Assembly (NCBI GenBank): GCA_965219085.1
Contig: OZ244720.1
Span: 1,184,001 to 1,248,000, forward strand
Length of the DNA stretch: 64,000 nt
Direction of reading: 5' to 3'
DNA from: Dehalococcoidia bacterium
GTDB taxonomy: Bacteria; Chloroflexota; Dehalococcoidia; UBA2979
The first letter of the stretch is position 1. Every line of letters begins with the position of its first letter. The notes under the pieces were generated by a model. That model did no database searches, was not told the origin of the DNA, and saw nothing but the letters and a program-made list of their open reading frames with translations. This document shows, one piece after another, positions 16,524 to 26,366 of this stretch. The translations under genes and the position numbers were made by a program.

Positions 16524-17156
16524 GAGCGACTCGCCTGGTTCCGTACACTCGAGTTCCGGCGCGCCGTAGCGCACAGCATGGACCGGGACCGGATCATCGC
16601 CGAGGCGATGGGGGGATCGGCTTCCCGCTGTGGGCGGCGCTCTCGCCGGCCTGTGGCGACTTCCACAACCCGAACGTTCGCCGCTACGAATACGACATCG
16701 ACAAGGCCAACGCGATCCTCGACGGCCTCGGTTGGCGCGACGGCGACGACGGCGTGCGCGAGGATCGGGCGGGCAATCCGATCACGGCTCACCTCCATGT
16801 ACGACTGGGAGACGGTGATCATCGGCCTCACCGGTAGTCCGGAACCGCACAGCGCGATCAGCCTCTTGAACAGCAGCGGCACACTGCACCTCTGGCACCC
16901 GCACCAGCCCTCGCCGGCCACGGATTGGGAGGCCAGCATCGACGCCCTTACATCGCAGGGAGCCAGGAACTGGATCACGAGCAACGCGTCGAGTTGTACC
17001 ATCGCGCGCAGGTCATCATGGGCCGAGCAACTCCCGCTGATCTTCATGCCGCTGTCGGAGCGGTTGACCGCGACGCGGAACGTGTTCGGCAATATGGCGC
17101 CTACCGAGCACGCGCTATGGGACATCCGTTACCTGTACCGTACTGGCACGAAATAG
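16524..17156 (+). pseudogene. Decayed copy of the C-terminal part of a family-5 SBP
   Basis: ERLAWFRTLEFRRAVAHSMDRDRII vs upstream EQLAWFSNVEFRRAVAHSIDKARII; frameshifts and internal deletion; ends LWDIRYLYRT. Confidence 0.85.
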
Positions 17157-17187
17157 CGGCACGAGGCAGCAGCGAAGGAGCAACCAC

Positions 17188-18027
17188 ATGGCCACCGCGA
17201 CGATCAACGGCGTCGAGATCTACTACGAGGAGCACGGCTCGGGCCCGCCGATCCTGTTCCACCACGGCTTCACCGGGTCGCACGACGGCTTCGTGCCGAT
17301 CGCCGAGCGCCTGCAGGATCGCTTCCGCTGCATCCTCATGGACTCTCGCGGCGCCGGCGACAGCGAGCGTCCCGACGGCGGCTACACGATCGAGCAGTAC
17401 TCGCAAGACATCGTCGGTCTGCTCGACCACCTCGGGCTCGACCAGGTCGCGTACGTCGGCCACAGCATGGGCGGCGGCATCGGCTTCCAGCTCGGCCTCG
17501 AGCACGCCGAGCGCTTCACGCACATCATGCTCGTCACGCCCATCTCCGCCGACGGCTACGCGACCGACCCGGTGCAGGCGGCGCGAGGCCGCCAGCTGCG
17601 CATGGACGGGGCGCGCGACGTGCTGATCCGCGAACGCAAGACCGGGATCGCGCGCGAGGAGCTCATCGACGAAGCCGAGATCGCACGGGACGTCGACCGC
17701 TCGCTCTCGGCCTCCGACGGCCACTACGACGACGGCATGGTGGCGATGGCCACCCTGCGCGTCGGTGACCGCCTGGACGAGATGACGACGCCGACGCTGA
17801 TGATCACCTCCGCCGCCGACGCCCTGCTCGCGGCCAACCTCGCCGACTTCCAGCGCCTGCCGAACGCCTCGCTGCACGTCTTCAACCGCGTCGCGCACGG
17901 CGTGCAGGACGAGGTCCCGGACGAGTTCGCCGAGTTGGTCGCGGACTTCGTGACGCACGGCGTGGTTAACGCGCAGACGCTGGCTGACCGCCTCGTCGCC
18001 GTGCAGGCGGAGGCCGCAGCGGTCTAG
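17188..18027 (+). CDS. Alpha/beta hydrolase
   Basis: HGFTG, DSRGAGDS, GHSMGG nucleophile elbow, late His. Confidence 0.95.
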   Translation: MATATINGVEIYYEEHGSGPPILFHHGFTGSHDGFVPIAERLQDRFRCILMDSRGAGDSERPDGGYTIEQYSQDIVGLLDHLGLDQVAYVGHSMGGGIGFQLGLEHAERFTHIMLVTPISADGYATDPVQAARGRQLRMDGARDVLIRERKTGIAREELIDEAEIARDVDRSLSASDGHYDDGMVAMATLRVGDRLDEMTTPTLMITSAADALLAANLADFQRLPNASLHVFNRVAHGVQDEVPDEFAELVADFVTHGVVNAQTLADRLVAVQAEAAAV

Positions 18028-18170
18028 CAGGCTGCTGAAGAAGCGCCCTTCCGGGGTCTCGGAGTGGCGAGAGGCGGCTTCAAGCCGCCTCCGGGTTCGT
18101 GATCGTGGCCTCCTGACCGGCCCCCGGGGGCCTCTGAGGGCTCCCTGGCGGGGCGGAGGGCGCACTGCGC

Positions 18171-18646
18171 CTACGCCGCGGCGGTCTCGAGCGTGGCCAT
18201 GCGCACGAGGTTGTAGGCGGCGGCGGTGAGCTCCAGCCAACAGCGGTTGCGCTCGCGGCCCACGAAGCGCAGCTTGCGCCCGCCGCCCACGGTCTTCATC
18301 CAGCCGAAGACCTGCTCCACGATCTTGCGCCGCTTCTGACTCTGCCTGTAGCCGCGATGCCGCGTGGTGCGCCCATCCACGGCGCTGCGGCGGCCGCGGT
18401 CGTGCTGCGCCACGTGCGGCGTCACGCCGCGAGCGCGCAGCGCCGCCACGAAGCCGCGCGTGTCGTAGCCGCGGTCGGCGCCCAGCGTCCCGCAGCCGCT
18501 CACGCTGCGCTCCAGCATCGTGACCGCCGCCTCGCGCTCGGCGTACCCGTTCGCCTCGGTCAACTCCACGTCCAGCACCAGACCGTGACGGTTCTCGGTG
18601 AGCAGATGGCCCATGTAGCTGAGCTTCGCCGTCTGCCCCGACCCCT
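18171..18646 (-). pseudogene. IS5 transposase, C-terminal fragment
   Basis: GSGQTAKLSYMGHLLTENRHGLV...GADRGYD...RKIVEQVFGWMK...AAYNLVRM. Confidence 0.9.
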
Positions 18647-18654
18647 AATGGGGC

Positions 18655-18890
18655 CCGACCAGCGGCCAGAGGTTCTCTGGCAGACTGGTTCTGGACCCTG
18701 CCAGCCGGTGAGCTCTCAGCTGATCCCTGCGGCTTCTGGACCGCTTCACGAAGACCGAGCCCCTGCTGGTATTCCGGGTTGTTCTGCAGCACTCATGGGG
18801 TGTCGTGCCATCGAGCACTGATCCATTAGGCCGTCGCAGGAACCAACCCGCCGGGTCGCACCGAGCAGCGCGAAGCGGGAGAGGAACTGA
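18655..18890 (+). ncRNA. Bridge RNA of IS110 element (ends approximate)
   Basis: Target loop CTGATCCCT (18720-28)/CACGAAG (18747-53); donor loop GGGGTGTC (18797-804)/CCATTAG (18823-29); each pair is separated by a short stem-loop. Confidence 0.85.
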
Positions 18891-18896
18891 AACACG

Positions 18897-20120
18897 ATGG
18901 CCTTGTACCTGGGCGATGACTGGTCCGAAGACCACCACGACGTCCATCTCATGAACGACGCGGGCGAGCGGCTCGCCGCCCGGCGTCTGCCCGAAGGGGT
19001 GGAGGGCATCACTGCCCTGCACGGACTGGTCGCCGGGTACGCCTCAGGGCCGGGTGAGGTGATCGTCGGCATCGAGACGGACCGCGGCCCCTGGGTCGCG
19101 GCACTGCTCGCGGCCGGCTACCACGTCTACGCCATCAACCCGCGCTCGGCGTCGCGTTACCGCGACCGCCACCACGTCGGCGGCGCCAAGTCCGACGCCG
19201 GCGACGCGAAGCTGCTCGCCGACCTCGTCCGCACCGACCGGCACAACCACCGGGAGGTCGCCGGCGACAGCGACGAAGCCGCCGCGGTGCGCATCCTCGC
19301 CCGCGCCCACCAGCAGTTGATCTGGGACCGCGTCCGCCAGACCAACCGGCTGCGCAACGCGCTCAGGGAGTACTTTCCGGGTGCGCTGGAGGCCTTCCCC
19401 GACCTCGCGCACGACGACGCGGTGGGCGTGCTGGCGACAGCGCCTGGCCCGCGCGAGGCGGCGCGGCTGAGCATCACCCAGATCCGCTCCGCGCTGCGCC
19501 GCGGCGGCCGCCGGCGCAACATCGAGCGGCGCGCCGCCGAGGTCCGCGACGCGCTGCGCTCACCGCAGCTCGAGGCTCCGCCCGCGGTGAGCAAGGCATT
19601 CGCCGCGAGCACCAGTGCGGCAATGAGGGTGATCGGCGAGATCAACCGTCAGATCAAGGAGCTCGAGGCCGAGCTCGCGAGCCATTTTGAGCAGCACCCG
19701 GACGCCGGTATCTACCGTTCCCTGCCCGGTCTCGGCGTGGTCCTCGGCGCCCGGGTGCTTGGCGAGTTCGGGGATGACCCCGAACGCTACGAGTCGGCGA
19801 AGTCCCGCAGGAACTACGCCGGCACGTCGCCGCTGACGGTAGCATCCGGCCGCAAGCACACCGTGAAAGCCCGCTTCGTCCGCAACCGGCGCCTCTACGA
19901 CGCAGTCGACCAGTGGGCGCTGTGCTCCCTGCAGGCCAGCCCCGGCTGCCGCGAGTTCTACGATCGGCGGCGCGCCGCGGGCGACCTCCACCACCAGGCG
20001 CTCCGCGCCCTCGGCAACCGTCTCGTCGGCTACCTACATGGCTGCCTGAAGCGCCGCTTGCCCTACGACGAGACGACCGCCTGGGGACACCGTTACACCC
20101 ACGAGGACCTCGCTGCTTGA
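18897..20120 (+). CDS. IS110-family DEDD recombinase/transposase
   Basis: GDDWS, GIET, KSDAGDA, SLPGLG, ASG, RALGNRLV; 407 aa intact. Confidence 0.95.
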   Translation: MALYLGDDWSEDHHDVHLMNDAGERLAARRLPEGVEGITALHGLVAGYASGPGEVIVGIETDRGPWVAALLAAGYHVYAINPRSASRYRDRHHVGGAKSDAGDAKLLADLVRTDRHNHREVAGDSDEAAAVRILARAHQQLIWDRVRQTNRLRNALREYFPGALEAFPDLAHDDAVGVLATAPGPREAARLSITQIRSALRRGGRRRNIERRAAEVRDALRSPQLEAPPAVSKAFAASTSAAMRVIGEINRQIKELEAELASHFEQHPDAGIYRSLPGLGVVLGARVLGEFGDDPERYESAKSRRNYAGTSPLTVASGRKHTVKARFVRNRRLYDAVDQWALCSLQASPGCREFYDRRRAAGDLHHQALRALGNRLVGYLHGCLKRRLPYDETTAWGHRYTHEDLAA

Positions 20121-20144
20121 CCCCTTAGCGTCCTGGGGGTGTCT

Positions 20145-20274
20145 TCGTGTACAGCCGCGCCTCCGGGTCCGTGCCGGAACTATGCGTATCGCGGCTGCGC
20201 CGCCGCCCGCGGAAGTCGACATCCGGGTTGCGTCCGCCCAGGGGTGGCTCCTGCTCGTCGCGCGGGCGGTAGCT
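20145..20274 (-). pseudogene. IS5 transposase, middle fragment
   Basis: Manual translation SYRPRDEQEPPLGGRNPDVDFRGRRRSRDTHSSGTDPEARLYTK. Confidence 0.9.
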
Positions 20275-20299
20275 TCTATGAGGGACGGTCTTTCTGCAA

Positions 20300-20610
20300 G
20301 GCCGACGTGGCGGCCTCCTCCTCGGGGCGTGGCGCTCCTCGACATCGGGGCCGATCCGCTCGTGATGTCCCCTGACGGAGCCTGTGCCGAGCTTCTATCC
20401 GCACTCTTTGATGGGCCACGTATCGGGCCCGGTGCATGAAGGCACATCCTGCTTCCAGGGGGCGCTGCCAACTCTTGAACGTCCTTGTTGGACCGCTACC
20501 GCCTCGCAGTCGCCCGTTGCCCGGCATCACGTGCAGTGGTTGGTTTGCTGGGCCTCCTCCCAGGTCCGTCTCAGTCTCGCTCTCCTGGTCGGTTGCTTCG
20601 GCGCCGCGCC
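20300..20610 (-). ncRNA. Seek/bridge RNA of IS1111-type element (3' non-coding region, ends approximate)
   Basis: Minus strand GGCGGTAGC (20503-20495) and TCAAGAG (20478-20472) match the target flanks; CCATC (20414-10) and ATAGAAG (20398-92) match the circle junction. Confidence 0.8.
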
Positions 20611-20613
20611 TTG

Positions 20614-21702
20614 CTACGCGGCCTCCTGCGCCGCGGCGTCGCGCAACGGCTCGTAGACCTCGCCGGTCTTCCACAGCGCGAGCAGCAGCACCGCCAGCCG
20701 CCTCGCGACGCCCACGACGGCGCGCTTCTTCGCGTTACCGGCCCCCGTAGCGGTGTAGCGCTCACCCCAGCGGCGCAGGTCGGTGTCGGGCCCGAAGGGG
20801 CCGAGGATGTAGTGCGCGGCCTGCACCAGCAGCCGCCGCAGGTGCGGATCGCCGCTCTTGCCGATGCCGAGTTGCGGCGTGCGCTCGCCCGAGTCGCGCT
20901 GCCTCGGCACGAGCCCGAGGTAGGCGCCGACCTCGCGGTTCTTCGGGAAGCGCCCAGGATCCTCGATCGTCAGCACGAACGTGAGCGCGGTGATCGGCCC
21001 GACGCCCGTGACCTGGCGCAGCGCCGCGGTCTCGGAGTGAGCCTCGCACAACGCCTCGATCTCGCGGCCGGCCGCCGCGATGCGCGCGGTCAGCTCGCCG
21101 ATCGCCTCCACCAGCGGCAGCAGCGCCGGGCGCAGCCCGTCGGGGATGTGGTCCGCCGTCTTGCGGTGGAACGCCTCGGCCGTGCACGACGGCAACGCGG
21201 CTCCGCAGGCCTTGACGGCCCCGCGCACGTGGTTGATGAGCAGCGTCCGCGAGCGCACCAGCGCGTCGCGGGCGCGCACCACGGCGAGGTCGTGCTGGCT
21301 CGCCTCGCTGCGGTGGCGGATCGGGGCGAGCAACTGGGGGTCGAAGCGCCCCAGCCGCGCCAGCCACTCGGCGTCGAGCCGGTCGGTCTTGCGCTGGCTG
21401 CGGGCGATCAGCGCGACCTGGCGCGGGTTGGCGACGACCACCTCGTGGCCGAGGTCCGCCATGAGGCGGCTCAGCCACGGCGAGCGCGGCCCCGCCTCGA
21501 TCACGACCCGCGATGGGGGGAGGCCGGTCAGCACCATGCCCAGCGCTGCCGTCGTGGTGCGGACGCGCCTCTCACGTACCACCTCCCCGCCGGCGCCGAG
21601 GGCGTGGACGTGGGTGTAGCGGTCGCCCACGTCGAGGCCGATGGTGACCCCTGACCCTTCCTTGCCCTCAATGCTCCACGTCGTTGCGGTATCCTGCTGC
21701 AC
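20614..21702 (-). CDS. IS110-family (IS1111-type) transposase
   Basis: GLDVG, VIEAG, KTDRLDA, VTGVGPITA, YLGLVPRQRDSG, AVVGVARRLA. Confidence 0.95.
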   Translation of the reverse strand: MQQDTATTWSIEGKEGSGVTIGLDVGDRYTHVHALGAGGEVVRERRVRTTTAALGMVLTGLPPSRVVIEAGPRSPWLSRLMADLGHEVVVANPRQVALIARSQRKTDRLDAEWLARLGRFDPQLLAPIRHRSEASQHDLAVVRARDALVRSRTLLINHVRGAVKACGAALPSCTAEAFHRKTADHIPDGLRPALLPLVEAIGELTARIAAAGREIEALCEAHSETAALRQVTGVGPITALTFVLTIEDPGRFPKNREVGAYLGLVPRQRDSGERTPQLGIGKSGDPHLRRLLVQAAHYILGPFGPDTDLRRWGERYTATGAGNAKKRAVVGVARRLAVLLLALWKTGEVYEPLRDAAAQEAA

Positions 21703-21814
21703 GGCCGGTCTCCTACCTCGTCAAAGCTCCGCAAAGAGCCGTTCTGGCCCATCGAGGCCGCTGTTTCGGGGGCGAGTATCCCCCTTGAGGAAGAGACCGG
21801 CCCTCATGCCATCT

Positions 21815-22285
21815 CTTGAGCGACGCCCACGCCTCGAGCAGCGTCCCGTCCACCGTGAAGTGCTCGGCCGAGAGCAGCCGGCGGCGCTTTGCCTCGGCCA
21901 CCACCTCGGCGAAGAAGGCGCGCGCGACATCGGCTGCGAGCAGGCGCTCGCGGTTCTTGGAGAAGCTCGAGGCGTCGAACGGCGCGTCTGAGATGTTGAG
22001 GTCCAAGAACCACTTGAAGAGCAGGTCGTAGCGCAGCCGCTCGCTGAACTGGCGCTCGCTGCGGATCGAGTAGAGCGCGATCAGCAGGCTCGCCTTGAGC
22101 AGGTGCTCGGGCGGGATCGAGGGCCGCCCGCTCGTTGCGTACATCGTGCCGAAGAGCGGCGAGAGCCGCTGCAGCGCTGCATCGACGATCGGCTTGATGC
22201 GTCGGATCGGGTGGTCGTCCGGGATGAAGGAGTCCGGCGTCACCGCCAGCAACATGTTGGTCTGACGCTCAGCGTCGCCTCGCAC
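21815..22285 (-). pseudogene. IS5 transposase, N-terminal fragment
   Basis: DHPIRRI, GRPSIPPEHLLKA, SIRSERQ, HFTVDGTLLEAWASLK. Confidence 0.9.
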
Positions 22286-22516
22286 GGGGCTGCCTCCCAG
22301 GCTACGCCCCCGCCGCCTTCGCTATCCTGCCAGATGGCCGCGCCTTTTTCAGCACCCTGCTAGGCTCCCCACCTGGGGCCGAACGCAAGAATCGGGGAGC
22401 CGCCGCGGCGGCTCCCCGGCGTCACCTCCGTGGCGCGGCCGAGGGCGATCCGGGTGGCGACGCAGCCCCACCCGAGCGCAAAGACGACTACCAGCCGTAA
22501 TCGGAGAGTGATTCTT

Positions 22517-22672
22517 ACAGGCTGTAGCACGTGCTTATAGGGTATACATACAGGCCATAGCACGTGCTTCCGAGCGTCGACCGACTGGTTGTCCCCCTCG
22601 GTCTGAGCCCCTATAGCGGACGCGACAGGCTGTAGCACGTGCTTATAGCGTGATATACACGTTGTAGCCTGT
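22517..22672. repeat. Three 20-24 bp direct repeats plus inverted half-site; probable operators
   Basis: ACAGGC(TG/CA)TAGCACGTGCTT at 22517, 22550, 22625; AGCCTGT at 22666-72 abuts -10 TACTAT. Confidence 0.75.
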
Positions 22673-22683
22673 ACTATCGACCT

Positions 22684-23154
22684 ATGCCTTCCTCGAACGC
22701 GCACGCACGATCACGGCTCGATGCCCGTTTGAGCCTGCTTCGGCCGCTCAGCCGGGAGCCGCTTCCGCACGCCGGGTGGATCCGGGCGATCCGCCAGGCA
22801 CTCGGCATGTCCGGCAGGGAGTTGGGAGACCGGTTGGGAGTCAGTCAGCAGACCATCCCCAACATCGAGCGCAGCGAACAACGCGGCGCCATCAAGCTGG
22901 AGACGTTGCGACGCGCCGCTGACGCTCTCGACTGCGATCTCGTGTACGCGCTCGTGCCCCGCCGCAGTCTGGATGAGCTCGTCATGGCGCAGGCCCGCCG
23001 CAAGGCGACCGATCACCTCCGGCCGATAGCGCACCACAGCCGACTCGATGATCAGGCGGTCACCGGCACGGATGCCGCGGCCCAGATCGACGAACTCGCG
23101 GCTCACTTCGTCGATCGCAGGGGCCTCTGGACCGAGTCGACAGCGCCGCGATAG
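22684..23154 (+). CDS. Mobile mystery protein A (XRE-family HTH)
   Basis: GWIRAIRQALGMS..ELG.RLGVSQ..IERSE..G.I.L.TLRRAA.ALDC.LVYALVP. Confidence 0.9.
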   Translation: MPSSNAHARSRLDARLSLLRPLSREPLPHAGWIRAIRQALGMSGRELGDRLGVSQQTIPNIERSEQRGAIKLETLRRAADALDCDLVYALVPRRSLDELVMAQARRKATDHLRPIAHHSRLDDQAVTGTDAAAQIDELAAHFVDRRGLWTESTAPR

Positions 23155-23586
23155 CCCGCGCGGCTCCTCGACGACAAGTACCTGCGCGATCTGCACGCTG
23201 CCATGTTCGGCGACGTCTGGAACTGGGCGGGCCGCTATCGGACTCTCGAAACCAACATCGGCGTCGCTCCGCACCGGATCGCAGCGGACATCCGGCTCAT
23301 GGTCGGAGACACCCGAGCGTGGGTGGAACACGACACGTACGGTTCCGACGAGCTGGCGGTGAGGTTCCACCACCGTCTCGTCGAGATTCATCCGTTCGCG
23401 AACGGCAACGGACGCCTCGGTCGAGTCGCCGCCAACTACCTGATCCGGGGTCTCGGAGCCGAAGCCTTCAGCTGGGGAGCCCGCGCCGACCTCGAGACCG
23501 ACGCGCTCCGGGGCGCCTATCGCCGCGCGCTTCAGCGCGCGGATGCCGGCGAGATCGCCGAGCTGCTGGCGTTCGCGCGCACCTGA
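23155..23586 (+). pseudogene. Mobile mystery protein B (Fic domain), N-terminally truncated
   Basis: LH..MFGDVWNWAGRYR and intact HPFANGNGRLGR; homology starts right after the mmA stop with no start codon until 23203. Confidence 0.75.
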
Positions 23587-23663
23587 TCCCGCCCCTCGGC
23601 CGCCCGCTCAGGGCGCCGAGGGGTCATACGCGTCGGCGATCGTCGGAGGGCTACACTGGATGG

Positions 23664-23844
23664 GTGGAGGCGACCCTTGCCACCGTGCCAAGAGACCGAG
23701 CAACGCCCACCACAGCCGTTCACCCTCGAATCGGTGTACGGGTCCGTGCAGCCCTCTGCGGCTCCGGAGGACTCCGACCAGTTGGTGCGTGACGCCAAGG
23801 ACGCGAAGGCCGAGCGAACCGTGCGGGAGCTGCGCGAGTCGTAG
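23664..23844 (+). pseudogene. Remnant of an AbrB/MazE-like antitoxin
   Basis: -10 TACACT 6 nt before GTG; second frame reads PFTLESVYGSVQP...VRDAKDAKAERTVRELRES*. Confidence 0.35.
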
Positions 23845-23849
23845 CCCGC

Positions 23850-26366
23850 TCAGGGCACCGAAGGCTCGTACGTGTCGCCGATGTGCCCGAGTTCCTCGAA
23901 CCGCCGGTACTCCGCGTCGCTGAAGCCCAGCAACTCCCTGTAGACGTACTCGTTGTCCTCACCCAGCAGCGGCGCGTGGCGCGGCGCGAACTCCGGGATG
24001 GCGCTGCCGCTCCATGAGCGGCCGACGTGGCGGTACGTGTCCGTCTCCGGGTGCGGGACCTCGTGGAGGAAGCCGCGCGCCTGGTGGTGCGGATCCTCGT
24101 ACACGTCCGCCTCGGTCATCACCGGCGCGGCCGGCACGCCGACGCGCTGCAGGCGGTGCGCGATCCAGTAGCGGTCACGCGGCGAGGTCCACTCGCTGAC
24201 GATCGCATCGAGCTCCGCGCGGTTCGCGAGCCGCGCGGCCATGTCGGCAAAGCGCGGGTCCTCGATGAGGTCCTCGCGGCGCATCGACTCGCACAGCCGC
24301 CGCCACTCCTCCTCGCTGCGCACGGCGATGGCGACCCAGCGGTCGAGGCCCTGGCACGGGTAGGCGTTGTGCGGCGCCATCCACACGTCGTTGTTGCCCA
24401 TCTGCTCCCAGGTGCGGCCATTCATCGAATAGTCGAGCACGAACTCGCCGATCAGCGGGACGAAGTTCTCCGTCGTCGCCTGCTCGATCAGCAGGCCGTG
24501 GCCGGTGCGGTCCCGGTAGCGCAGCCCCATCGTGAACGAGAAGGCCGCGCCGGCCCCGCCCGCCGCGTCGGAGGGCACCCCGAGCGGGACGTACTCGAGG
24601 CTGAGCCCGGGGTAGGAGCGGATGGCGGGGTGGCCGGAGAACGCCTCCATGTGCATGCCCATGCTGCGCAGGTTGCGGTACGGCCCCTGCAGGCCGTAGC
24701 CGGGCATGCGCAGCATGACGAAGCGGGGGTTGATCGCCGACAGCCGCTCCCAGTTGACGTCCAGACGCTCGATGTTCTGCGGCAGGTTGTTCTCAATCAG
24801 CCCGTCCGAGACCGCGACGAGGCGCTCGAACACCTCCTGCCCCTCGGGCCGGGAGAGGTCGATCGTCATCGAGAGCTTGTTGCGGGAGTGGTGGTTGAAG
24901 GCGGACGAGCGATTCCACGGCCGCTCGCCGGCGTCGGCGTCGGGGTAGCCGAGGCCGGCCGTGCTCAGCATCTGGGCAGTCACGATCTCCGGCGAGGGGC
25001 GCGCCATCAGCCCGCGCGTCGCGTTGGCGAAGTGCTGCAGCGACTCGACGCGGATCACCTCGGCGCCCCACTCCGCGAGGTGCATCGTCGAGTAGGGCCC
25101 GGCGAGCACCACGGTGAAGTCGAGGATGCGCACGCCCTCGAGCGGGAGCCGCCCCGTGGCGCCTGCGGGCGGCACGGTCGGCGCCTCGCGAGGCGCCGGA
25201 GCGGGCTCGCCGAGCACCTCGGCGGTGTGCTCGCCGAGCAGGGGGGCGCGGCGTCGCGGCGGCATCGGCTCGTCGGGCCGGTACAGCGTCGCCGAGTAGC
25301 CGGGGTAGGCGAGGGGTCCCGTCTCCGGGTGGTCGATCTCCTGGAAGAAGCCACGATGGCGGAAGTTGGCGTCCTCGAGCATGTCGGCGACGGTGTTGAT
25401 CGGCCCGCCGAGCACGCCGTGCTCGATGCACGCCTCGGTGATCTCGGCCTTGGTGTGCGAGATCATCCACGGGATCAGGTACTGGTTGAACTGGTCGATG
25501 CGCTCCGGCTGCGCACGTGACTCGATGGTCGCCCACTCCGGCTGCTCCAGCAGCTCGGGCTGCTCGATCATGCGGATGACGCCTTCGAGGCGCACCGGCC
25601 CGCCGCTCAGCATGTAGAAGCCGTCGCCGCACGGGAACGTGCCGCTTCCCACCGCCGATGCCAGCGGCGGGCGCGTGCCGTAGCTGCCCGTGTACTGGTA
25701 CATCATCAGCCGCGCCAGCCGCAGGTCGATCGAGTGCGTGGCCGTCTCGAGGAGCGAGAGGTCGACGTGCTGGCCCTCGTCGCCGGCCTCGGCGGCGCGC
25801 AGCGCGAGCGACGTGGCGAGCGCGCCGACGATGCCGCCGTGGAAGAGCGTCATGTGGCCGGCGTTCTTGAGGGGCTCGTGGTCGACATCGCCCGAGGCGA
25901 TCATCGGGCCGCCCATCGCGTAGAGCGTGAGGTCGGTGACCTGGTAGTCGCGGTACGGCCCGTCCTGTCCGAAGTTCGTCATCGACGTCAGCACGACGCG
26001 CGGGTTCACTTCGCGCAGCGCCTCGTAGCCGAGGCCGAGCCGCTCCATCGTGCCCGGCGGGAAGCTCTCGACCACGGCGTCTGCGCCGGCGACGAGGCCG
26101 AGCAGCCGCTCGCGGTCCTCGGAGCGCTCGAGGTCGAGCACGACGCTGCGCTTGTTGGTGTTGAGGAACAGGAACACGGCCGAGCGCTCGGGGCCGGGCA
26201 CGTCCTGGTGGAACGGGGGCTGCATCCGCGCCGGGTCGCCTCCGGGCGGCTCGATCTTGATCACGTCGGCGCCGTAGTCGCCGAGCAGGCGGGTGGCGAA
26301 CGGGCCGGCCTCACCCTGCGTCAGGTCGATAATGGTCACGTCGTCGAGCGGCATCACGTCGGGCAT
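23850..26366 (-). CDS. Family III CoA-transferase (CaiB/BaiF), two tandem domains
   Basis: AGPFATRLLGDYGADVIKIEPPGGDP/NTNKRS and second AGPYSTMHLAEWGAEVIRVES/RNKLS; GGAGG before ATG 26366. Confidence 0.92.
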   Translation of the reverse strand: MPDVMPLDDVTIIDLTQGEAGPFATRLLGDYGADVIKIEPPGGDPARMQPPFHQDVPGPERSAVFLFLNTNKRSVVLDLERSEDRERLLGLVAGADAVVESFPPGTMERLGLGYEALREVNPRVVLTSMTNFGQDGPYRDYQVTDLTLYAMGGPMIASGDVDHEPLKNAGHMTLFHGGIVGALATSLALRAAEAGDEGQHVDLSLLETATHSIDLRLARLMMYQYTGSYGTRPPLASAVGSGTFPCGDGFYMLSGGPVRLEGVIRMIEQPELLEQPEWATIESRAQPERIDQFNQYLIPWMISHTKAEITEACIEHGVLGGPINTVADMLEDANFRHRGFFQEIDHPETGPLAYPGYSATLYRPDEPMPPRRRAPLLGEHTAEVLGEPAPAPREAPTVPPAGATGRLPLEGVRILDFTVVLAGPYSTMHLAEWGAEVIRVESLQHFANATRGLMARPSPEIVTAQMLSTAGLGYPDADAGERPWNRSSAFNHHSRNKLSMTIDLSRPEGQEVFERLVAVSDGLIENNLPQNIERLDVNWERLSAINPRFVMLRMPGYGLQGPYRNLRSMGMHMEAFSGHPAIRSYPGLSLEYVPLGVPSDAAGGAGAAFSFTMGLRYRDRTGHGLLIEQATTENFVPLIGEFVLDYSMNGRTWEQMGNNDVWMAPHNAYPCQGLDRWVAIAVRSEEEWRRLCESMRREDLIEDPRFADMAARLANRAELDAIVSEWTSPRDRYWIAHRLQRVGVPAAPVMTEADVYEDPHHQARGFLHEVPHPETDTYRHVGRSWSGSAIPEFAPRHAPLLGEDNEYVYRELLGFSDAEYRRFEELGHIGDTYEPSVP

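What the first reader, a model, noticed from the sequence alone, without database searches (positions are those of the whole stretch)
20265..21822. IS1111-type element with perfect-match seek RNA guides in its 3' non-coding region
Seen: the target is GGCGGTAG-CT-CTTGAGCG (+ strand). On the transposase (-) strand the downstream non-coding region reads GGCGGTAGC (9/9 with 20265-73), then a GTCC/GGAC stem-loop, then GTTCAAGAG (7/7 complement of CTCTTGA plus one U:G). About 60 nt further on, CCATC and ATAGAAG match the junction GCCAT-CT-TCTAT. Sub-terminal IRs sit 5 and 3 nt from the core. Both nested elements use a CT core on the + strand although their transposases face opposite ways. Inference: a compact (362 aa) programmable recombinase candidate with long target recognition.
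Basis: partly seen in the sequence, partly recalled or inferred. Interest (0 to 1): 0.78.

Follow-up and report, generated by a model that had tools for sequence, protein, structure and literature searches.

The report
RNA-guided IS1111-type insertion sequence
This is a jumping gene of a known kind that carries its own small guide RNA to choose where it inserts; here it sits inside another jumping gene, and its many relatives show the guide changing together with the insertion site.

Summary
Window 20275-21812 is a 1538-bp IS110-family element of the IS1111 type. It has a 362-aa DEDD transposase on the - strand, 14-nt sub-terminal inverted repeats and a 339-nt 3' non-coding region, and it lies between two copies of a CT core. 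The genome holds six exact empty sites. The two arms of one RNA loop match the flanks with 1 mismatch in 18; 1 of 20000 shuffles did as well.

Relatives in this genome and five genomes of the same genus carry about 14 different arm pairs. In 20 of 24 guide-plus-site combinations the arms follow the flanks. In a test of 10 guide types, 0 of 20000 permutations reached the observed match. Three of the four exceptions sit at the site specified by another guide type in the same genome.

One detail is probably wrong. CCATC is not conserved and lies in a stem; UGCCUUC is the better 5' donor arm.

This is the seekRNA/bridge RNA mechanism published in 2024, so it is a new member of a known kind. No expression data could be obtained.

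The parts
20275..21812 (-). IS1111-type element, 1538 bp, without the core dinucleotide
   Evidence: 11 copies in the genome. 5 are about 100% identical and 6 are 85-88% identical. The ends are fixed by 6 exact empty sites.
20273..20274 (.). CT core, copy at the right end of the element in transposase orientation
21813..21814 (.). CT core, copy at the left end of the element in transposase orientation
20265..20272 (.). Target half GGCGGTAG, same sense as RNA arm 1
21815..21821 (.). Target half CTTGAGC, complementary to RNA arm 2
20614..21702 (-). DEDD transposase, 362 aa. GLVPRQRDSG motif at residues 263-272. Likely D24, E69, D107 and D110 by alignment position.
   Evidence: Pfam PF01548 (E=2.8e-19) and PF02371 (E=4.6e-20). 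NCBIfam NF033542 at 240 bits against a cut-off of 140. 28% identity over 293 aa to the IS4321 transposase, E=1e-22.
20275..20613 (-). 3' non-coding region, 339 nt
   Evidence: Paralogs differ there by indels that are not multiples of three, so it is not a conserved ORF.
20377..20552 (-). Conserved structured RNA (seekRNA/bridge RNA candidate). The outer stem runs from about 20531 to 20382.
   Evidence: Consensus fold of 13 sequences: 41 pairs, 4 with compensatory changes. The covariance model R1 scores 177.6 bits here. It also finds relatives at 69% (L104) and 52% (L106) protein identity.
20495..20503 (-). Target-loop arm 1, GGCGGUAGC. It pairs with the transposase-orientation top strand to the right of the crossover, plus one core base.
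   Evidence: 9 of 9 match. It covaries with the flank in relatives.
20481..20494 (-). GUCC/GGAC hairpin between the two target arms
20472..20480 (-). Target-loop arm 2, GUUCAAGAG. It has the same sense as the left flank plus the AG core in transposase orientation, and pairs with the bottom strand.
   Evidence: 8 of 9 plus a U:G wobble. It covaries with the flank in relatives.
20438..20444 (-). Proposed donor-loop 5' arm, UGCCUUC. It is complementary to the core G plus left-end positions 1-6 (ATGGCA), matching 6 of 7.
   Evidence: It lies on the 5' strand of the donor loop. RNA G changes to C where left-end position 5 changes from C to G in the J and K subtypes.
20392..20398 (-). Donor-loop 3' arm, AUAGAAG, equal to the right end ATAGA plus the AG core
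   Evidence: It is invariant in the 13 sequences of alignment A1 whose right end is known, so no covariation test is possible.
20410..20414 (-).
   Evidence: It reads CCACC, CCACA or CCACG in paralogs with the same left end. It lies in the 3' strand of a predicted hairpin stem.
20278..20291 (.). Sub-terminal inverted repeat, right-end arm
   Evidence: pair I23: 14 nt, 93% complementary
21794..21807 (.). Sub-terminal inverted repeat, left-end arm
   Evidence: pair I23
18020..22367 (-). Host IS, about 1.3 kb without its two inserts, with a DUF772 transposase. It is the target of the element. Its pieces are 18020-18646, 20145-20272 and 21815-22367.
   Evidence: Pfam PF05598 on 21713-22285. Intact copies join 18646 to 20143.
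18647..20142 (+). Second nested element, IS110 type, 407-aa transposase at 18897-20120, 250-nt 5' non-coding region

Best explanation
The element is an active or recently active IS1111-type member of the IS110 family. Its 3' non-coding region is proposed to encode a structured RNA of about 150-175 nt that binds the DEDD transposase.

One internal loop of this RNA reads the target. Its 5' arm pairs with one DNA strand to the right of the crossover. Its 3' arm pairs with the other strand to the left. Both arms include the CT/AG core.

A second loop reads the junction of the circularised element. Its 3' arm AUAGAAG matches the right end plus the core. Its 5' arm UGCCUUC matches the core plus the left end.

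Recombination at the core dinucleotide inserts the circle without a target duplication. Here the insertion point is codons of the DUF772 transposase of another IS.

Shown here: the anatomy, the empty sites, the covariation of the arms with the flanks, and the conservation of the RNA.

Inferred from published work on ISEc11, ISPa11, ISKpn4 and IS621: expression of the RNA, its binding to the protein, the circular intermediate, and the chemistry.
For: 1. Ends and core are fixed by 6 exact empty sites.
2. The two target arms have 1 mismatch in 18. 1 of 20000 shuffles did as well.
3. The arms differ among paralogs while the flanking stems stay the same. The true flanks beyond tandem repeats fit the arms in c7, c8 and c10.
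4. Across 10 guide types, one site each, the summed match is 108. Permuted pairings give a mean of 59.3 (sd 7.4, max 97), and 0 of 20000 reach 108.
5. Of 24 distinct guide-plus-site combinations, 20 score at least 9 of 14 with their own guide. Non-cognate pairs average 5.41, and 17 of 484 score at least 9.
6. A relative at 69% protein identity (L104) also fits: arm 1 matches 8 of 8 and arm 2 matches 5 of 7.
7. The RNA consensus fold has 41 pairs. The covariance model finds the RNA in relatives down to 52% protein identity, and in this genome only in copies of the element.
8. IS1111 geometry and protein similarity are met.
9. Five copies are about 100% identical, which suggests recent movement.
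Against: - No expression or RNA-end data. All 22 listed public runs are kept as contigs. The one RNA run that was laid covered parts of the transposase gene and the right flank, and 44 nt at the element's right end (20272-20315), but none of the conserved RNA.
- No sigma-70-like promoter or intrinsic terminator was found.
- The single-sequence fold is not better than shuffles (z = -1.32).
- Only 4 of 41 pairs show compensatory changes, because the stems hardly vary.
- 4 of 24 guide-plus-site combinations do not fit their own guide: L009 scores 5, L024 scores 4, L037 scores 4 and L093 scores 7.
- The 5' donor arm has a mismatch, and its covariation rests on two related subtypes, possibly a single event.
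- Copies c1-c3 have identical flanks and may be one insertion copied along with its host IS.
- Rfam has no matching family.
Confidence: 0.9

Rival explanations
1. The arm-to-flank matches are footprints, not guides. The transposase alone recognises the site, and the loop sequences are pieces of target DNA picked up by past imprecise recombination.
For: Arm 2 has the same sense as the flank, as a captured copy would. Tandem partial copies at the right end show that untidy recombination does occur.
Against: - The arms always sit at the same two positions of a conserved internal loop, one in the sense and one in the antisense orientation. Each includes the core, in 14 different arm pairs.
- A protein that is 75-100% identical across subtypes could hardly read 14 unrelated 16-bp sites.
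- Published experiments show the RNA is essential and reprogrammable in this family (PMC11187229, sections 9, 10 and 12, read).
Confidence: 0.03
2. The copy in the window is a dead relic. The RNA-guided mechanism applied in the past, but this copy no longer moves, or its RNA is not made.
For: There is no expression evidence. Copies c1-c3 may be duplicates of a composite rather than independent insertions. Copies c4 and c5 carry a group II intron in the right end.
Against: The ORF is intact. Both ends, both inverted repeats and the whole RNA are intact. The copy is about 100% identical to four other copies. Insertions lie in at least three variants of the host IS (c1-c3, c4, c5), alongside 6 still-empty sites.
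Confidence: 0.1
3. The four elements at the 'wrong' site arose by homologous recombination or gene conversion between paralogs after a normal insertion, not by guidance from another paralog's RNA.
For: Copy c9 (L009) is a mosaic. Positions 300 to the end are about 100% identical to c6/c7. The first 100 nt are 96% identical to c10. So paralogs do recombine.
Against: For c9 the conversion tract would have to end within the last 25 nt or so of the element. L024 and L037 are two separate whole elements of one subtype, sitting in sites of a subtype whose transposase is only about 75% identical to this element's. No flank homology is available to drive conversion.
Confidence: 0.35

Closest known systems
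IS1111-family elements with a seekRNA: ISEc11, ISPa11, ISKpn4, ISPst6 (Siddiquee et al. 2024, PMC11187229; abstract and sections 6, 9, 10, 12, 13, 14 read)
   Same: - DEDD transposase.
- Near-perfect sub-terminal inverted repeats with asymmetric extensions.
- Long non-coding region downstream of the transposase gene.
- Two short RNA segments that match opposite strands of the target, with the top-strand complement placed 5'.
- Relatives with exchanged arms and a new target (ISEc11 and ISXne4).
- Targets that lie inside other IS are reported in that paper for ISEc21, an IS110-type element.
   Different: - Only 28% protein identity to the one named IS1111 member compared here (IS4321).
- The host is a Dehalococcoidia lineage, judged from the labels of relatives.
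- The ORF is 362 aa, against 330-350 aa quoted for the family.
- Nothing has been tested experimentally.
- Far more arm pairs are seen at short evolutionary distance: 4 in one genome and about 14 in one genus.
IS621 bridge RNA (Durrant et al. 2024, PMC11208160, passages read; Hiraizumi et al. 2024, PMC11208158, passages read)
   Same: - Two internal loops, one for the target and one for the donor.
- Each loop has two arms that pair with opposite strands and overlap a CT core.
- No target duplication on insertion.
- Those authors predicted bridge RNAs in the right end of 93% of IS1111 elements.
   Different: - The RNA is 3' of the gene, not 5'.
- The element is inverted relative to the CT core.
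- The inverted repeats are long.
- Protein similarity to IS621 is limited to the C-terminal domain (E=1e-6).
The IS110-type element next door, window 18647-20142
   Same: It lies in the same host IS, has a CT core on the same strand, and carries a DEDD transposase.
   Different: - Its 250-nt non-coding region is 5' of the gene.
- Its transposase is 407 aa and resembles this element's only in the N-terminal domain (E=4e-7).
- Its arms are in the opposite order relative to its own transposase gene.

Membership tests
IS110 family (DEDD transposase) | N-terminal DEDD/RuvC-like domain plus the C-terminal PF02371 domain | tested here: met
   PF01548 (E=2.8e-19) and PF02371 (E=4.6e-20). NF033542 at 240.1 bits against a cut-off of 140.
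IS1111 group | Sub-terminal inverted repeats, usually 11-13 bp, perfect or near-perfect | tested here: met
   14 nt, 93% complementary, at 20278-20291 and 21794-21807. Criterion taken from the PMC11187229 introduction (passage read).
IS1111 group | Asymmetric terminal extensions of 7 (or 6) bp on the left and 3 bp on the right | tested here: met
   The right extension is 3 nt (20275-20277). The left extension is 5 nt (21808-21812), or 7 if the 2-nt core is counted with the left end. Counting the core with the left end is my reading.
IS1111 group | The longer non-coding region lies downstream of the transposase gene | tested here: met
   339 nt downstream against 110 nt upstream.
IS1111 group | Transposase related over its full length to IS1111-type transposases; GL-P----S(t)G motif | tested here: met
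   28% identity over 293 aa spanning both domains to the IS4321 transposase, E=1e-22. GLVPRQRDSG at residues 263-272. Only the N-terminal domain aligns with the neighbouring IS110-type transposase. No phylogeny with ISfinder references was built.
IS1111 group | In the RNA, the segment complementary to the top strand lies 5' of the segment complementary to the bottom strand | tested here: met
   In transposase orientation, arm 1 (5') is complementary to the top strand and arm 2 (3') to the bottom strand. The neighbouring IS110-type element shows the opposite order.
seekRNA / bridge RNA systems | The arms covary with the target among relatives | tested here: met
   In a test of 10 guide types, 0 of 20000 permutations reach the observed match. 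20 of 24 combinations fit.
seekRNA / bridge RNA systems | A donor-binding loop whose two arms match the joined ends | tested here: inconclusive
   The 3' arm AUAGAAG is exact but invariant. The 5' arm UGCCUUC matches 6 of 7, with one covarying position in two related subtypes.
seekRNA / bridge RNA systems | The RNA is transcribed, binds the transposase and is required for circle formation and insertion | not testable with these tools
   The public runs were contigs only and gave no usable RNA cover of the conserved RNA.

The most novel reading that the evidence does not exclude
Paralogous IS1111-type elements living in one genome may share guides. The target loop of one paralog's RNA can deliver the DNA circle of another paralog to its own site.

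- Three of the four elements found at a 'wrong' site sit at the site specified by a co-resident guide type. They score 12, 12 and 11 of 14 with that guide. The 20 well-placed elements score at most 8 with any co-resident foreign guide.
- This fits the published finding that, in IS621, the target loop and the donor loop of one synaptic complex come from two different RNA molecules.
- Arms also appear to evolve as separate modules. Subtypes D and K share arm 1. B and G share arm 2, and so do E and M.
- In one relative (L104) the DNA that encodes arm 2 was itself used as a half-site. This produced a tandem 231-nt copy of the right end.
Probability: 0.45. Interest if true: 0.55.

Novelty: new member of a known kind. 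Interest (0 to 1): 0.35.

Why it matters
As a single element it adds little. RNA-guided target choice in IS1111 and IS110 elements was shown in 2024, and bridge RNAs have been predicted for most catalogued members.

The value lies in the family around it. One genus of uncultured Dehalococcoidia holds about 14 natural guide variants on a nearly constant protein and RNA scaffold. Their occupied sites, and for this element's guide type six empty sites, are on record.

That is a ready-made natural reprogramming series. It can be used to study which arm positions must pair, how arms are exchanged, and how specific the system is when several guide types share a cell.

The apparent guide sharing would bear on the off-target behaviour and orthogonality of bridge recombinases used as genome-editing tools.

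Tried and rejected
- Rfam scan of 17000-24000 at E up to 1: nothing on the non-coding region. The only real hit was Ms_AS-4 at 19721-19802, inside the neighbouring transposase gene.
- Promoter and terminator scan: none found. The scan covers only sigma-70-type consensus.
- Public runs: all 22 listed runs are kept as contigs. Four were laid. The single RNA run (X21, 0.05 of the words) covered parts of the transposase gene and the right flank, and 44 nt at the element's right end (20272-20315), but none of the conserved RNA at 20377-20552. Nothing can be said about expression. Contigs that skip the element (joints 20272 to 21813) were seen in X1 and X7, but the genome itself holds empty sites, so this adds nothing.
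- Single-sequence fold: z = -1.32, not informative.
- Half-match explanation for the tandem right-end repeats in c7, c8 and c10: I compared the internal junction sites by eye with the cognate target halves, using the outputs. The matches were 1 to 5 of 7, with no consistent pattern. Only L104 gives a clean case.
- Search for the inverted repeats of L104, L106 and L089 with the repeat finder: not informative. The right end of L106 was not located.
- In the extended count, the two F-type sites (L022, L049) dropped out because a looser left-end anchor hit a wrong place. In one search both scored 9 of 14.
- No phylogeny against ISfinder references was built, because no reference set was available. 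Supplementary tables of the papers were closed; they may list IS1111 membership and predicted bridge RNAs that bear on the classification.
- Literature on guide sharing: two searches listed no paper that states it. This is not an exhaustive search.
Full report
**What is there**

Window 20275-21812 is a 1538-bp element between two copies of CT, at 20273-20274 and 21813-21814. Its - strand carries a 362-aa ORF at 20614-21702. The ORF has both Pfam domains of IS110-family transposases. It scores 240 bits on NCBIfam's 'IS110 family RNA-guided transposase' model, against a cut-off of 140.

A 110-nt non-coding left end precedes the gene and a 339-nt non-coding region follows it. Inverted repeats of 14 nt (93% complementary) lie 3 and 5 nt inside the ends.

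The genome, a single 3.3-Mb contig, holds 11 copies. Five are about 100% identical and six are 85-88% identical. It also holds six exact copies of the uninterrupted 18-mer GGCGGTAGCTCTTGAGCG. So the ends, the CT core and the absence of a target duplication are established.

**Context**

The target lies inside a multi-copy IS of about 1.3 kb with a DUF772 transposase. In the window this host IS carries two inserts.
- The first is the element under study.
- The second is an IS110-type element at 18647-20142. It has a 407-aa transposase on the + strand, a 250-nt 5' non-coding region, and CT cores at 18645-18646 and 20143-20144.

Relatives of the element are labelled as Dehalococcoidia or Tepidiformaceae metagenome-assembled genomes.

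**The guide arms**

Read on the transposase strand, the non-coding region contains three parts in a row:
- GGCGGUAGC, the same as the + strand left flank plus the first core base (9 of 9);
- a GUCC/GGAC hairpin;
- GUUCAAGAG, the complement of CT plus the right flank (8 of 9, the ninth a U:G wobble).

One of 20000 dinucleotide-preserving shuffles of the region reaches this match.

**The refutation test**

They do not.

In the genome's own paralogs the stems around the loop are unchanged while both arms are replaced. In c7, c8 and c10 the flanks beyond tandem right-end repeats fit arm 1.

Five genomes of the same genus hold further copies at 69-90% protein identity. A pattern scan of those genomes listed their loops. 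In all I count about 14 clearly different arm pairs.

Scoring 7 nt on each side of the core gave these results:
- Ten guide types, one site each, sum to 108. Permuted pairings give a mean of 59.3 (sd 7.4, max 97), and 0 of 20000 reach 108.
- Among 24 distinct guide-plus-site combinations, 20 score at least 9 of 14 with their own guide. Non-cognate pairs average 5.41, and 17 of 484 reach 9.
- A relative from another MAG at 69% identity (L104) also fits: arm 1 matches 8 of 8 and arm 2 matches 5 of 7.

**The exceptions**

Four combinations do not fit their own guide: L009 (= c9) scores 5, L024 scores 4, L037 scores 4 and L093 scores 7.
- For the first three, another guide type present in the same genome scores 12, 12 and 11. 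The 20 well-placed elements score at most 8 with any co-resident foreign guide. Only 5 of 484 non-cognate pairs reach 11.
- L093 has no such partner in its 30-contig assembly.
- c9 is a mosaic of two paralog lineages, so recombination after insertion remains possible for it.
- L024 and L037 are two whole elements in the sites of a subtype whose transposase is only about 75% identical to this element's. Guidance by the other subtype's RNA is the simpler reading for them.

This would agree with the report that, in IS621, the two loops of one synaptic complex come from two RNA molecules, and that separate loop RNAs work in vitro (PMC11208158, passages read).

**RNA structure**

A consensus fold of 13 sequences gives the following layout:
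- an outer stem, about 20531 pairing with about 20382;
- the target loop, closed by GGGCGaCUGC/GCAGCGCCC and the inner hairpin;
- a small CCUG-GAAG-CAGG hairpin;
- a second loop that carries AUAGAAG on its 3' strand.

The fold has 41 pairs, of which 4 show compensatory changes. The stems are nearly invariant, so the covariation support is thin. The single-sequence fold is unremarkable.

A covariance model built from this alignment scores 177.6 bits on the window. It finds the RNA in relatives at 69% and 52% protein identity, the latter labelled Candidatus Acidiferrum. In the window's genome it hits only copies of the element, including the tandem copies at c10.

**Donor arms**

AUAGAAG equals the right end plus the core. 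It is invariant in the 13 sequences of alignment A1 whose right end is known, so no covariation test is possible.

It also lies in a hairpin stem, so I take it for chance.

On the 5' strand of the loop, UGCCUUC is complementary to the core G plus ATGGCA, matching 6 of 7. In the J and K subtypes the left end reads ATGGG, and the RNA has C where this element has G. The K subtype reads CCCAUC, a perfect match. This is one covarying position in two related subtypes, so it is suggestive only.

**Classification**

Every sequence criterion given for IS1111-type elements is met (PMC11187229, introduction and sections 6, 9, 12 read):
- near-perfect sub-terminal repeats;
- extensions of 3 nt, and of 5 nt plus the 2-nt core (7 in all);
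- a downstream non-coding region;
- the GL-P----SG motif;
- the top-strand complement placed 5' in the RNA.

The transposase aligns over both domains with the IS4321 transposase (28% identity, E=1e-22). It aligns only over the N-terminal domain with the neighbouring IS110-type protein, and only over the C-terminal domain with IS621 and ISCro4. No tree was built.

Seen from the CT core, the two elements in the window have their RNA arms in the same arrangement, but the transposase genes face opposite ways. This is the family-level reversal already published.

**Verdict**

The thing itself is a new member of a known kind. Expression, protein binding and programmability are inferred, not shown.

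Noticed in passing
L010 (c10, genome 2848476-2850738), L007 (c7), L008 (c8), L045, L104:2560-3099: A complete element is followed by one to four tandem partial copies of its 3' non-coding region. Each copy ends in the right end CATAGA-AG. In all five distinct internal junction sites of c7, c8 and c10, AG precedes the repeated part. In L104 the junction is exactly the DNA that encodes target arm 2 (GGTTCTG-AG|ATTGCAG), which is a built-in half-site. Tandem non-coding repeat units beside IS110 transposases, and half-match recombination, are described in preprints 10.64898/2026.08.14.744561 (section 8 read) and 10.64898/2026.08.31.748434 (abstract read).
   Followed up: partly
L004 and L005 (c4, c5); L021, L023 and relatives: An ORF-less group II intron of about 1 kb (Rfam RF02003 and RF00029, opposite strand) interrupts the right end of c4, 15 nt from its tip, inside the inverted repeat. 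Copy c5 has the same sequence at the same position but was not scanned with Rfam. In other genomes a group II intron (RF02005) lies near the left end, at L021:2729-2954, where the usual left flank is replaced. These introns appear to home to the ends of this IS.
   Followed up: partly
window 18647-20142: The neighbouring IS110-type element has candidate bridge RNA arms in its 5' non-coding region. CACGAAGA at 18747-18754 is complementary to TCTTCGTG, the last element base, the CT core and the right flank. GGGGTGT at 18797-18803 matches the right end. CCATTA at 18823-18828 is complementary to the core T plus the left end. A solo copy lies at genome 166284-167787.
   Followed up: partly
window 19721-19802 (- strand): An Rfam hit to Ms_AS-4 (63.9 bits, gathering score 50) lies antisense inside the IS110-type transposase gene. 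This probably reflects that the Rfam family was built on an IS110-like gene region.
   Followed up: no
loci of G000, G013, G015, G017: Arms seem to change independently. Subtypes D and K share arm 1 but differ in arm 2. B and G share arm 2 but differ in arm 1. E and M share arm 2.
   Followed up: no
left ends of L009, L024, L030, L031, L032, L044: The first one to three bases of the left end next to the core vary among copies (ATGGC, ATAGGC, ATTGGC, CTGGC), although the rest of the end is constant. The three bases that follow the core in target arm 2 vary as well (AUG, AUA, UUG, CUG). No clean rule was found.
   Followed up: no
L106:2560-2900: A relative at 52% protein identity (labelled Candidatus Acidiferrum) has two tandem target-loop modules with slightly different arms before a single donor loop. 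The arm 2 of the first module fits the left flank better (TGTCAAG).
   Followed up: no
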